Origin: Flaccisagitta enflata
Lineage: Eukaryota
Direction of reading: 5' to 3'
Length of the DNA: 64,000 bases
Assembly: GCA_965153355.1 (NCBI GenBank)
Contig: OZ231126.1
Span: forward strand, 3,658,001 to 3,722,000
The notes beneath the pieces are model-generated. The model had not been told where the DNA came from and made no database searches. It worked only from the letters and a program-made list of their open reading frames with translations. Shown in pieces: positions 1 to 62,500 of the stretch. A program made the translations under genes and the position numbers. Within the stretch, counting starts at the first letter, position 1. Every line of letters begins with the position of its first letter.

Positions 1-1684
1 AAATCACACATAACCCAGACAGCGCTTTTCCGCTCTCGTTAGACACGTCATATCTTCATATCTATCTAAGACATGGCTTTACATATGGATAGAAAAGCGA
101 ATAAAGAACACGAGGTAACTCCATTAACTCCGATGCCGAAAAGATCAGAATTTCCTATAAATTGATAAATAACAATATAACATTACTTGCAACGCGTTGT
201 TGGCGTATTGGCGTGTTTTTTCAATATTTGACAGGCGGCCGGAGAGTCGCCTTGCTAGGTAGAGCTGCCCGCCTCGGGTGATGCTCTGTCGTCAAACACA
301 CATGAGGCTGGGGTTCGTTCAATTATAGTCGTGCTAGGGTGCACGTAAAAACAAAGGGATAGAAAAGCATGTGAGCACGTATTGGCAAGGAACTAACGCC
401 AACAAACAAAGCTAGAATGTTGTTGAAAGTTGGTACACAGGTTAGTATTGCCCTAAAAATAACACTGACCAAGTTTCATCAACATCTGAGTTGTGGTTCT
501 CAAGTTTTTTAGGGTTGAGACAAACAACAAACAAACAAACAAACAAACGACTCACTACACGATCAAGGCTATGTTATAGTCCTCGACGTAAACTGATCGT
601 CGAGGACAGAAACAAACAAGAGTGATGTTGATCTCATCCTAACAAGTCTCCCAAACAGCAGTGGTCAGCGGTACCCATTGCCCCTAAGTTAGGACCCTAT
701 GCTTGGATGTAGTAGTGAGATCTCACGCGATCACCAGAGGGTCAGCGGCCACGAAGGAATGGATGACCTACGCTCGCCTATGCTTGGTTCGGATTGGAGC
801 AGGATCTGAGCCTGGAGCCTTAGATTTGAGCAGAGGCTGGGATTTGGGCCTGGAGGCTGGAATTTGCGTGTTCAGGTTGGGATTTGTGACGCCCAAAATT
901 TTCTGTTGTTCATGTATATGTCCAGCTTGACGCCATACTAAGGTAATCAATTTTGTACTACCATTTCTGAAAAACAGTGGCGTAGGACAACGGCGACAAC
1001 GTCGACAACGTATGACGACAACGACGACAACAACGACGAGCATGACTTTGGATTTCTTGACATTTTAATGCATTTCCCATTTGTCAGCTGCCAGCTGCAA
1101 TAATCGTGCAATCCTGCAATAGTTTTTGTTAAAAACTTTCCTCAACAATCCCACAAATAAACAAGGCCGGATACACGGCTACCCCAGTCGCGTGCGGGTG
1201 GGCAGGAGCTGTATTTGAGGTCACTTGATCATTTGGGCAGAAGCAGTGAGGCCAAAGACCGCGAAAACCCCAAAAACGTAAAATGTGATGGACAGACGGA
1301 CCGACGGACGGACCGACGGACGGACCGCCAAAGCGGGCTGTAGAGTCGCGTAGCATGCGACTAAAAATATGTTTTCTTAAAATATTTGCAGAATCACGTA
1401 AAAAGGATGAGTGTAAAAGCCACAAACTTATTCTCATGATATTGTCTTTGATGAAAAATTTTCTGAAGAAGAAGTAGAACACCGGCTAAATCAAAATTAA
1501 CACAAAAAGGCAAAAAAGGTGAGTTAACATCAACAAGCCTGTTACCGAGAGCAACGATGTGTTCCTTTTTCGCATTTTTTTAAGTAACAACAGATTATTC
1601 TTTCCAAGGCTCAAAGTTATTATTTTTAACTCATTTTGAAGCTCAATCCTTTGCTATGGTGTCATTTGATACTACACTATTTTA

Positions 1685-1999
1685 CAGGCCTGTATATTAT
1701 TGAGTTTTCCCCCCCCCCCCCCGTGGGGGGGGAAAAAATCAAAGGGTCTGGAGATGGGGAAGGAAACCAAAGGGGGAAAAAAGAGAAAAAAAGAAAATTT
1801 GGGGAAAATATAACTTTTGACAGTACTAAATCATAAAACCCAATTAGTAAAACACAATTTGACACTTTTTAAACCTTAACTACTTAGTTTTATTGCTCTA
1901 TGGGGAAGAAAATCATAGATATAAAAATGCTTCGCGGGGAAGAAAATCAAAGGCAGGGGGGGAAAAAAATCAAAAGCGACTCAATAATATACACCCCTG
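1685..1999. mobile_element. hAT-type MITE
   Basis: CAGG..CCTG termini, perfect 8-bp TSD CTATTTTA. Confidence 0.85.
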
Positions 2000-59500: not shown

Positions 59501-62500
59501 AGCGTCCCAATCAGACGAAAAGGCGGAGACGGAACTGAAAAGCGAAAGGAGGAGCAAGAAAGTAGTCCAAAGTGAAATACCGAAGAAGCGAGATGACAAC
59601 AACAGAGAACTGAGACAGACGCAACGCGAACTGAAAGAGACGAAGGAAGAAGCGGCCCAATTAAAAGCGATGATGAGGAAGAAGGAGAAACAATTGAGAG
59701 AAATGGCGGAAAGAGGAAATGGAGATCGAAGAATGATCGAGGAAAAGGAGGAAGAAATAAAAGGGTTGGAGAAGTTGGTGGAGAGGAAACAAAGGAGAAT
59801 AGAGAAGCTGGAAAGCATTTTGCTGGGGAAGGAAGAGGAGGAAGAGGAGGAGGAGGATGAAAGCGAGGAAGAGCGGGTTGATGATGATGATGAGGAAGAG
59901 ACCCGCCAGATTGATCGGTTATCAACCACGCCCAACAGCTCCAAGGTAAGAGACAATGCAATATTCACCAAACTACTTACTGATAACAAGGCCGGATACA
60001 CGGCCAATACCAGTCGCGGACGGGTGGGCAGGGGCGGAAGTAAGCGTTTTCACACTTTCAAACTCGATCACCACGGACCAACCAACCAACGGACGGACGG
60101 ACGGACGGACGGACGGACAAAGCCTCTTATAGAGTCGCTAGTCCGCGACTAAAAAGATGAAACAAAATCGTTCACCCGCATGTTCACATATGTAAACATA
60201 CCTTCCTACCGTCGGTGTTCTTTTTCCAGTTGTCCCCTCTCTACGCTAAAAAAATATATGTTCCCATTTGTTTATAACCCTCTCGCTATCATTTCTCTCA
60301 ACAAATGCTCATTCATACTTTTGCAGACGAGAGTCGTTCGTAACTCGACGCCTTTCCGACTCGACGGTCGCCAACTCCGGGCGGCCAACGGCCCAACTCC
60401 GGGACATAATCAAGATCCATCACCCTCAGACGCCCGCGTTCGCTTCGGCGGAACGACGACGTATTCCTCATCGGCGACCGATTTGTATCACGAAACATCG
60501 CATCCAAATCGCGAAGCATCGCATCCGCCTCAGTCGCTTCCAAATCACAAACTACGTCAGTCGAATTTCACTGCGTTACATGCGGACCCAAAACAGCAAT
60601 CCTCGAGTCATGTCCTTCAAGAGGAGTCTAAAAGAGATTTTCCGCCCCCTCTTCATCCTCCTCCTCACCATCATCATCATCATGGATCAGCTCCTTATCT
60701 TTCAAACCAACACGCTCCATCCCACACAACTGGTCATCATCATCATCATCATCAACAACATTATCATCCAAAGATGATAGCGTCCAATGACGAGGCTGAG
60801 GATTACAAATACATAGAGAGCCGAAATCAACAAAATCATCATCAAAACCCGCGCTTCGGCTCCGCGAAGAGTGAAACTGATATCAAAACACGCTATCGGT
60901 CATCAACCAACCACAACAGCGGCCATCTCCCACACGCCGGCACAACCAACGTTCCATCGGCGACTTCCGTTGTTGGCCAGACTGGTACGCATTTTCCATC
61001 CCACGCGACAACATCGACGCCTCGCGGCCACGCCTACACAACCATCGATCAACAACCACCATCGACTTCGCTAGACAACGGGGGACGCGTAGTGGCGCCA
61101 TTTCCAGATGGAAGCGTATTGGCGCCATTTCCGGATGTCGTCCAGTCGCAATCCGGCGTCGTCCATCATCCTTCATCCACAACCAACTCGTCGCCGACTC
61201 ATTCTCAGACTCACATTATCGTCAACGTCGGGACGCCAACAGCCTCGTCATCAACTGCGTCCAGGAATAGACCGGAAGTGGATAATAAAACTGGAAGCGT
61301 CAGCCGCGTCCTCTTCCAAAATCAAGACGTTAATATTCGAGAGACCGTGACGGATATGGGAGGAGGAAGAGGAAGAGAGGAAGAGGCGGAAGCGGAGGAG
61401 AATGAGCCTTTGTTGATGTGCAGCGTGCCTGAGCATCATGTTCTGGAAGATCGGCTGGGATTGTTGAATTACGAGGACGACAATGGCGGTGGTAGGGATA
61501 AGGAGAACAAAACCAAACGCGGACAGGCTCCCAAAGTGGCCAAAGATAACAGGTAAATGAGGAAGAAATGAAGGGATCGCGCGGTGATAGAGTAAGAAGG
61601 TGGCTTTCTCTTTTCATTTATTCCACCATCGTCTTCGGTGATATCATCCTATTCACATCATTTTTTTCCCTTTTATTTATTCCACTATCGTCTTAGGTGA
61701 TATTTATTTTCCTTTTTGTATCATTCTTTTTCCTTTCATTTATTCCACTATCGTCTTCGGCGATATCATCCTATTCACATCTTTTTTTTTTCCTTTTATT
61801 TATTCCACTATCGTCTCCGGCTACATTTATTTAACTATTTACATCATTCTGTTTATTTTCAACAATCACCTATCAATCTCTTTCATCGCTTTTAACTACC
61901 GTAGCTGCCCTATCGCTGTGTTTCATTCGATTGTTTTCGCATTTGCAACTGAATTTTCCTTTGATTTTGACTGACTGGACCCTATAAGAAGTAAGGAGGG
62001 ACCCCAAGTTTTTGCAGCCCCCCCTACAGCTTATATGGTTCAAATTATTTTCTCACTTCCAGTGGCGGTCGACACCTTGGGTTTGGGTGCTTCACATAGC
62101 AAAAGTTGGGAGTATCCCTTCACCCTACTTAAGTTATGTGGAGGAGCAAAAATCATGAAGATGACCTTTTTTTTTTCATAATTCTTTCATCTTCCGTTTT
62201 TGTTTTGGCCTTAAAGTTTCCACTGATTTCCCAGAATTCAGCAAAATCCTGTGTAGTTTTGTTACAAAAAAGACAATTATTTGTTTTAAAAAATCATGAT
62301 GTATGAAAAAATAAACTAAAATATCAGAACATAAGTTATGAAAGAGCAAATGAAAAGGCAGAATTGCAATTCTATGAAGAGTAGAAAATTATGAAAGCTG
62401 ATTCAAATAATGCCAGCATATTTTTTTATCCCACTGTATTATGCAAATTAGGTCCTTAAATGCAATTTTCTATAAAACAGAAGATAAACGATTTTTAATA

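What the first reader, a model, noticed from the sequence alone, without database searches (positions are those of the whole stretch)
575..60154. At least five sequence-distinct short elements share one terminal layout: T-run, hairpin+CTATA, microsatellite, sub-TIR, 3' hairpin, T-run
Seen: families A (5044 AGTCGCGT..ACGCGACT-CTACA), C (17331 AGGTGC..GCACCT-CTATA), E (19399 AGATGCGT..ACGCATCT-CTATA), D (29802, 14-bp arms, ..GGA-CTATA) and the minus-strand element at 579-607 (GTCCTCGACG arms, CTATA) have different stem sequences. All keep the fold and the CTAYA motif directly 3' of the stem. In A, C, D and E one arm recurs inverted ~20-30 nt from the far end, before a small hairpin. Known: this layout matches Helentron-associated HINE/DINE-1 elements. 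Inference: each arm is a family-specific recognition key for a cognate Rep/helicase, and CTAYA is a shared nicking or binding signal. This would be a diversified rolling-circle system dominating this genome.
Basis: partly seen in the sequence, partly recalled or inferred. Interest (0 to 1): 0.72.

Follow-up and report, generated by a model that had tools for sequence, protein, structure and literature searches.

The report
Helentron derivatives with matched autonomous partners
These short repeats are non-coding copies of a known kind of rolling-circle transposon (Helentron/Helitron2); the same genome holds full-length, protein-coding versions with the same ends, so the layout is ordinary for this class, although the shared CTATA motif behind the first hairpin has no explanation yet.

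Summary
The layout is real, with corrections. A, C, D, E and the 575-607 element (G) are non-autonomous Helentrons (HINEs, HLE2). Exact heads occur 717-9,376 times each in the genome. Full-length elements of 9.5-15 kb, with Rep + PIF1 + AP-endonuclease frames of 2,500-3,500 aa, carry the ends of A, C, D and E. G has only a sister family. Copies sit in T-runs without a target duplication; the few empty sites fit a cut at TTTT^, with two end classes (…CTTGT, net +2 T; …A/CTTTT, net +5 T). The 3' sub-TIR tracks the first ~10 nt of the head, loop bases included, as Bao and Jurka proposed for Helitron2. Arm sequence follows RepHel clade but not one-to-one, which linkage alone would give, so 'cognate key' is unproven. 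CTAYA is enriched (12 against 0.9 expected) but lies 18-32 nt inside the element; only 2 of 137 copies begin there, so it is not the integration nick. In D and G its C closes the stem. A, C and E are relatives, not independent inventions. 'Dominating the genome' is not shown. Verdict: new families of a known kind.

The parts
575..607 (-). Family G head: 10-bp stem closing with G-C, then TATA; this copy is interrupted and lacks its 3' end nearby
   Evidence: (717 exact heads)
1161..1362 (-). Family A HINE, complete
5039..5043 (+). 5' T5 run of the A copy (read as 4 host T + 1 element T; inference)
5044..5062 (+). Family A 5' hairpin (5' ATIR + IR), 8-bp stem
   Evidence: 9,376 exact heads
5063..5067 (+). 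CTACA directly after the stem
5077..5131 (+). GTCY microsatellite of A
5223..5257 (+). A 3' end: 10-nt sub-TIR, 3' hairpin, CTTGT
8455..8659 (-). Older A-key HINE with a different 3' hairpin
15465..16285 (+). Family C HINE with two heads (15465, 15594) and internal 21-bp repeats
17331..19175 (+). Family C HINE, 1,845 bp: head, second head at 17488, ATTC array, 21-bp repeats, degenerate sub-TIR, hairpin, CTTGT
19400..19678 (+). Family E HINE; its 3' 53 nt are 96% identical to the end of a 14-kb autonomous element
   Evidence: empty site for its paralogue
20606..22522 (+). Duplicate of the 17331 C copy with an A-type segment after the head
25105..25310 (+). Family A HINE
25616..26075 (+). A-key HINE
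29802..30660 (+). Family D HINE: internal deletion derivative of a 15-kb autonomous Helentron (83% over the first 750 bp); sub-TIR at 30629-30640, end CAGA + T-run
   Evidence: (1,170 exact heads)
30734..30866 (+). HINE with degenerate AGTCGCGGAC-type head
34094..34693 (+). Two A-key HINEs tail to tail (34094-34341 +, 34360-34693 -)
34806..35254 (+). Degenerate E HINE
43846..43995 (+).
   Evidence: (10,494 exact heads)
52849..53036 (+). A-key HINE
55787..55972 (-). A-key HINE
59986..60150 (-). Family H HINE (key AGTCGCGGAC), the element at the finding's right limit

Best explanation
The elements are non-autonomous Helentrons (HINEs; Helitron2/HLE2 group), moved in trans by RepHel-endonuclease proteins of full-length elements in the same genome (membership shown; trans-mobilisation inferred). 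Likely working: RepHel nicks in the 5' T-run just before the hairpin and peels off one strand (inferred from Helraiser work and from the boundaries). When the 3' sub-TIR emerges it pairs with the first ~10 nt of the head, more bases than the hairpin's own right arm holds, opens the 5' hairpin and brings the ends together (Bao and Jurka's proposal; the covariation is shown here, the pairing is inferred). The second cut falls after CTTGT (A/C/E/F/H clade) or after A/C-TTTT (D/G clade), the circle is joined and inserted at TTTT^N without duplicating the target (boundaries shown, chemistry inferred). The arm is therefore first a self-complementary end-matching code that can drift by compensated changes; protein read-out of it is possible but not shown. 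CTAYA is an internal conserved word, most likely part of the RepHel loading site beside the stem, not the cut site (inference).
For: Autonomous elements with both ends: D 15.0 kb, E 14.1 kb, A 13.2 kb; C 9.45 kb by coordinates (head, frame of 2,593 aa, tail). Domains DUF6570 (6 of 8 elements), Helitron_like_N, PIF1, AP endonuclease (8 of 8 with a hit, 4 over the curated cut-off); HUH and YxxxY motifs in 10 of 10 proteins. Window D is a deletion derivative. No non-T duplication in 105 of 115 complete copies, shuffle mean 110.6. 5' run is T5 in 63 of 84, 12 of 16 and 14 of 21 copies. Empty sites: net +2 T in 3 of 4 (AG class), +5 T in 3 of 4 (G; one self-match dropped, L190 taken); the reading frame of the LINE fragment under the 5044 copy fits +2 modulo 3. 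Head positions 3, 4, 8, 9 match the tail in 80-89% of 45 copies against 32-50% shuffled, 0 of 1,000 shuffles. Head-tail duplexes are predicted more stable than the hairpin in A, E, H, C. Same layout, reversed frames, multiple heads and compensated ends are in print.
Against: The window's A copies share only the 10-nt sub-TIR, not the 3' hairpin, with the one autonomous A element whose tail was read. C rests on one autonomous copy that was not read end to end. The A/C/E-clade Rep reads NYR..GAPH, not the F/Y-x-R..GSPH signature of Thomas et al.. No reference HLE1/HLE2 proteins were in my trees. Empty sites are few (8) and paralogous T-runs slip; 10 of 115 copies show 3-11 nt duplications against 4.4 by shuffle. 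Covariation counts are not independent events (about 8 keys) and my tail anchor forced positions 2-7 in part. For the window's degenerate F copy and for D the duplex is no more stable than the hairpin.
Confidence: 0.9

Rival explanations
1. One reading: every arm is read by its own RepHel as a sequence key (orthogonal families), and CTAYA is a shared binding word.
For: Arms follow protein clades: A key on 8 of 8 A-clade loci where a boundary head was seen, E key on four subfamilies, C on its own branch, D and G' sisters. CTAYA in 38 of 45 unbiased AG-class heads and TATA in the D/G clade whose proteins are 24% identical to the A/E clade.
Against: Ends and frame are inherited together, so tracking is expected without read-out. 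E proteins 66% identical share a key while C differs from its 72%-identical sister. The two most abundant keys include F (10,494 heads), for which no own partner was found. One autonomous A-clade head reads CTAGA and another subfamily CTATG.
Confidence: 0.3
2. CTAYA is the nick site that starts rolling-circle replication, as the conserved word in a plasmid or viral origin.
For: It lies at the base of a hairpin and is strongly enriched there.
Against: Copies begin 18-32 nt upstream, at the T-run, as flanks and empty sites show; only 2 of 137 post-stem signatures lack both arm and T-run; register differs between the clades.
Confidence: 0.07
3. The extra T's are a true target duplication (TT or T5) from a staggered cut by the AP endonuclease, or the elements are MITEs/SINEs.
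For: Net +2 and +5 T are formally also a 2- or 5-nt duplication; the proteins carry an endonuclease; Thomas et al. suggest it cuts in the T-run.
Against: Three AG-class copies have a single 3' T and two G copies have four, which a duplication cannot give without mutation; ends are asymmetric; no tRNA or Rfam hit; ends are shared with RepHel elements.
Confidence: 0.08
4. CTAYA has no function of its own: it is ancestral sequence next to the stem, or a decayed extension of the stem that half-pairs with the T-run.
For: A, C, E, F, H are relatives and share further post-stem bases; in oyster HINEs a TAT/TATA word at the stem base is simply part of the IR (PMC7492417 Table S2).
Against: It persists while arm and loop bases change, and recurs in the distant D/G clade.
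Confidence: 0.35

Closest known systems
HINEs / DINE-1, non-autonomous Helentrons (Thomas, Vadnagara and Pritham 2014, PMC4067079; parts 1-5 of 8 and Table S2 read)
   Same: 5' sub-TIR with nested IR, microsatellite, 3' sub-TIR, 3' stem-loop, T-rich target, no duplication, deletion derivatives of Rep/helicase/endonuclease elements, families defined by sub-TIR, some frames reversed.
   Different: Sub-TIRs here are 8-11 nt in A/C/E/F (12-15 there); the 5' T count is nearly fixed at five with a class-specific net gain, where that paper reports variable T's; the A/C/E Rep motif lacks their diagnostic residues; no RPA frame seen.
Helitron2 (Bao and Jurka 2013, PMC3627910; passages read)
   Same: 8-15 bp asymmetric TIRs, 5' hairpin, 3' ATIR 20-30 bp from the end, 5' T, compensatory changes, ATIR pairing proposed to open the hairpin and set the end, reversed frames.
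   Different: Elements here carry the endonuclease; no conserved post-stem word is mentioned in the passages read.
FoHeli1-5 of Fusarium oxysporum (Chellapan et al. 2016, PMC5148889; section 6 and passages read)
   Same: Two end classes, ATTTT and CCTGT, much like the A/C-TTTT and CTTGT classes here; multiple 5' termini; reversed frames; the legend gives Helitron2 insertion between TTTT and T or C; joined ends shown by PCR.
   Different: Other target preference for FoHeli1/2; whether the two classes are homologous to those here was not tested.
Cg_HINE families of the Pacific oyster (PMC7492417; passages and supplementary Table S2 read)
   Same: Eleven families in one genome with family-specific sub-TIR, IR and stem-loop, GTCY microsatellites, internal tandem repeats.
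   Different: Other arm sequences; one (GTCCCCCGCCG) resembles the G' arm.
HLE2 subgroups with UCH, EN and DUF6570 (Li et al. 2024, HELIANO, PMC11417382; passages read); SGNH-bearing Helitrons of fish (PMC4021074; abstract read)
   Same: Same accessory domains: UCH protease, endonuclease, DUF6570, SGNH hydrolase; alternative left ends.
   Different: Subgroup assignment not tested; here SGNH is fused to RepHel in the D/G' clade.

Membership tests
Helitron2/Helentron (HLE2) and HINEs | 5' ATIR within 0-2 nt of the end, forming a hairpin | tested here: met
   for A, C, D, E, G
Helitron2/Helentron (HLE2) and HINEs | 3' ATIR of 8-15 bp about 20-30 nt from the 3' end | tested here: met
   A 10, C 8, E 10-11, D 13-14, G 9 nt; G seen only in copies outside the window
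Helitron2/Helentron (HLE2) and HINEs | Separate 3' hairpin after the sub-TIR | tested here: inconclusive
   Met in A, C, E, F, H; 3 bp only in D; in G the palindrome overlaps the sub-TIR
Helitron2/Helentron (HLE2) and HINEs | Insertion in T-runs without target duplication | tested here: met
   105 of 115 without non-T duplication; 8 empty sites, one of them a self-match, one more; frame test
Helentron | Autonomous partner with Rep + PIF1 + C-terminal AP endonuclease and the same ends | tested here: met
   A, D, E read at both ends; C by coordinates and three read pieces. Not found for G, F, H
HLE2 | DUF6570 marker upstream of Rep | tested here: met
   6 of 8 elements scanned
Helentron | Rep motif-2 signature F/Y-x-R ... 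G-S-P-H | tested here: inconclusive
   Met in D and G' (FYR..GSPH); A, C, E read NYR..GAPH; none has the Helitron1 leucine
HLE2 | RepHel groups with reference HLE2 proteins in a tree | not tested
   Trees hold only proteins of this genome
HLE2 | Circular intermediate with joined ends | not tested
   No reads were laid; the one read call was not used
Canonical Helitron (HLE1) | 5' TC, 3' CTRR, insertion between A and T | tested here: not met
   Ends are T-AG/T-G ... CTTGT or TTTT, in T-runs
tRNA-derived SINE | tRNA-like head, A-rich tail, variable target duplication | tested here: not met
   (these tools can miss decayed heads)
MITE of a cut-and-paste superfamily | Symmetric terminal repeats and fixed target duplication | tested here: not met
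   3' repeat is subterminal; no duplication other than T

The most novel reading that the evidence does not exclude
CTAYA/TATA is an undescribed cis-acting RepHel loading word kept across two Helentron clades that are only 24% identical, used together with a precise TTTT^ cut and a clade-specific T cargo (+2 or +5), while the ~10-nt arm acts as an orthogonal address. With at least eight keys and young, intact autonomous copies (D-family Rep regions 99-100% identical), this genome would offer the parts for a first biochemical test of how Helentron ends are recognised.
Probability: 0.25. Interest if true: 0.5.

Novelty: new member of a known kind. Interest (0 to 1): 0.27.

Why it matters
The layout, family-specific arms, compensated ends and reversed frames are all described for Helitron2/Helentrons, so the finding adds families, not a new system. 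Its use is practical: matched non-autonomous and intact autonomous partners for four keys, and a sharper boundary rule (fixed T5, net +2 or +5) than 'variable T's'. My searches listed no biochemical study of Helentron end recognition and no paper on a post-stem CTATA word (one listed preprint holds the string with 'helitron'; I did not open it), so these elements make the key-versus-pairing question testable.

Tried and rejected
CTAYA as element start: 2 of 137, rejected. Reverse-strand heads downstream of RepHel frames were first taken as unrelated insertions; paralogue boundaries showed that the A-type ones are true ends, while the C-type head at that place in C3:87354500 is a separate 525-bp HINE. 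A loose scan for inverted pairs was mostly noise. mis-parsed the tails of 6 F copies; one search corrected this. One 'empty site' (L192) was the element's own head and was dropped. No RepHel fragment lies in the window, only weak endonuclease similarity to its LINE. No ends were found for the C5:8275200, C9:53235000, C2:92340500 and C4:11758800 clades within the DNA read. Two of five short tail windows showed E-type tails (L213, L217), three showed none. G's own partner was not found; the nearest is the G' family (tail ...GGGGACTG...AAGC-TTTT, internal 71-73% similarity), whose head was not reached. One search translated the wrong frame and was not used. ARAGORN and Rfam found nothing. Repbase and Dfam are not available here. 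Earlier scan notes: none for this genome or sequence. The supplements of HELIANO and of Bao and Jurka, not read, may show post-stem motifs.
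Full report
Observation. The five heads are at the stated places. Of 628 maximal perfect hairpins on both strands of the window, 12 are followed directly by CTATA or CTACA, against 0.9 expected from word frequency. A looser scan gave 21 candidate heads and 24 candidate tails of the AG type, a few of them false; paired copies plus D and G cover at least 8,686 of 64,000 bases. 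Corrections: D's arms have one mismatch; in D and G the C of CTATA closes the stem; D's 3' hairpin is 3 bp and G has none apart from its palindromic sub-TIR; the window's G copy is interrupted; C and D are 0.9-1.8 kb; A, C, E and two further keys (F at 43846, H at 60150) share an A..GCG..C core, post-stem sequence and the CTTGT end, so they are relatives.

Abundance. The window is G000:C1:3658001-3722000 of a 794-Mb assembly. Exact head matches: A 9,376, F 10,494, E variant 1,503, D 1,170, C 1,059, G 717; reversed-pattern controls 0. These are lower bounds. They show high copy number, not that the class dominates the genome.

Autonomous partners. PF14214 gave 150 scored matches of 273 candidates, many in open frames of 2,500-3,600 aa. 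I read 10 loci over 20 kb and 40 from Rep to the 3' side, plus seven short pieces. D: a 15.0-kb element has the D head, a 3,460-aa frame and the D tail; the window's D copy is 83% identical to its first 750 bp and matches its tail; 17 further Rep regions of this family among the 30 top loci are 99-100% identical to it. E: two elements read at both ends, one with a tandem row of at least nine heads; E tails follow the frame in 14 of 17 further E-clade loci, the other three being truncated or interrupted. A: the frame is antisense to the ends; a 13.2-kb element has head and sub-TIR, and A heads lie past the stop in seven more loci, at the shared boundary in five. C: an exact head, a 2,593-aa frame and an exact tail span 9.45 kb on C1; tail, endonuclease and Rep pieces were read, the rest not. 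Pfam on 8 elements: Helitron_like_N and PIF1 in all, AP endonuclease hits in all (4 over the cut-off), DUF6570 in 6, UCH protease in 5, SGNH hints in 3. No own partner was found for G, F or H.

Boundaries. Among 115 complete copies, 105 had no non-T duplication (shuffle mean 110.6); the longest case lay in a CT microsatellite. The 5' run is five T in 63 of 84 AG-class, 12 of 16 D and 14 of 21 G copies, while the 3' run varies from a floor of mostly 2 (AG) or 5 (D, G). Empty sites in held DNA give net +2 T in 3 of 4 AG cases and +5 T in 3 of 4 G cases (with one self-match dropped; L190). The A copy at 5044 splits a LINE-like frame that is open with 2, 5 or 8 T, fitting 7 minus 2. One rule covers both classes (inference): the element starts with one T, ends with CTTGT or with A/C-TTTT, and goes in at TTTT^N. 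Copies with one 3' T (3) or four (2) fit this and not a duplication. The legend of PMC5148889 Fig. 2 gives that target for Helitron2, and its two fungal groups end in ATTTT and CTCCTGT.

The arm. In 45 paired AG-class copies that were not search targets, head positions 3, 4, 8, 9 agree with the inverted tail in 80, 89, 84, 84% against 50, 50, 33, 32% after shuffling (0 of 1,000). Positions 8-9 lie in the hairpin loop in C, F and H, so the tail tracks the terminal sequence and not just the stem. Copies are related and my anchor fixed part of positions 2-7, so the weight is about eight keys, not 45 events. Predicted head-tail duplexes are more stable than the hairpin for A, C, E, H, equal for D, weaker for the decayed F copy (duplex and hairpin energies are only roughly comparable). 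Bao and Jurka already proposed this switch and reported compensatory changes. On protein trees the A key marks one clade (72-76% identical within), the E key is spread over subfamilies 66-84% identical, C is sister to one of them (about 72% on Rep + endonuclease pieces, support 0.96), and D and G' are sisters (57%), 24% from the rest. Tracking is expected from linkage and does not show read-out by the protein.

CTAYA. It follows the stem in 38 of 45 unbiased AG-class heads, CTATG in 3 more; an autonomous A-clade head has CTAGA. Of 137 post-stem signatures only 2 lack both arm and T-run. It is internal, so not the integration nick. Its survival while arms change, and the TATA at the same place in the distant D/G clade, favour a loading or spacing role, but shared ancestry or a decayed stem extension is not excluded; in oyster HINEs a similar word is part of the IR.

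Comparison. Thomas et al. 2014, Bao and Jurka 2013, Chellapan et al. 2016, the oyster study and HELIANO together describe the layout, sub-TIR-defined families within one genome, GTCY microsatellites, reversed frames, multiple 5' ends and the accessory domains; SGNH capture is known from fish (abstract). For Helraiser I saw only the abstract. The elements work like HINEs and pass the tests that define them, apart from the weak or missing separate 3' hairpin in D and G and the Rep signature in the A/C/E clade; placement against reference proteins was not tested. Three earlier scan notes from other genomes reached the same class; they are not independent support.

Verdict. Real, well explained, new families of a known kind. 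Left open: what CTAYA does, and whether arms are read by protein or only by pairing. Interest 0.27.

Noticed in passing
window 9996-13874 (-): LINE with an open 1,070-aa endonuclease + reverse transcriptase frame (Pfam) and ORF1-like frames upstream.
   Followed up: partly
window 17025-19343 and 20301-22690: 2.3-kb block duplicated at 93%; the second C copy has an A-type segment right after its head (20633), a possible template switch or conversion. Copies with the same flank lie inverted just upstream of the window (L156, L157).
   Followed up: partly
window 29802 and 60150: The first 9 nt of the D arm are the reverse complement of nt 2-10 of the H key; D, G, G' and H all fit GTC-NNN-GAC although D/G and AG-class proteins are 24% identical. 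Chance or a deep shared motif.
   Followed up: no
window 29640-29797: Another repeat ending in a hairpin + CCTG + T-run directly before D; D is inserted in its T-run. Probably a further HLE2 family with the CCTGT end.
   Followed up: no
L120:5437-5671, L135:6055, L175, L192: Elements often insert in the terminal T-run of other elements, giving tail-to-head chains.
   Followed up: partly
L047 (G000:C6:35091200, first 1.7 kb): Autonomous E element with at least nine tandem heads at about 140-bp spacing.
   Followed up: partly
L050:4462-6036 (-), L044:4634-6121 (-): A-clade elements carry a second 500-aa frame with GDS..DGIH motifs of an SGNH hydrolase (my reading, no Pfam hit); in D and G' an SGNH domain begins the RepHel frame, and G' has a Peptidase_C48 domain.
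   Followed up: partly
L035-L042, L138-L140, L143-L148: Further RepHel clades (one with C-terminal UCH) whose ends were not found; long flanks made of tandem repeats.
   Followed up: partly
window 45783-48677 (-): F-box frame (48180-48677) followed by two long frames without Pfam hit; probably one F-box gene.
   Followed up: partly
window 4067-4427, 5985-6313, 19684-19770: Degenerate TTAGGG-like arrays inside dispersed repeats; the E copy at 19400 is inserted next to one.
   Followed up: no
window 58155-61553 (+): Two long coding-like frames (665 and 467 aa, no Pfam hit) on either side of the H copy at 59986-60150.
   Followed up: no
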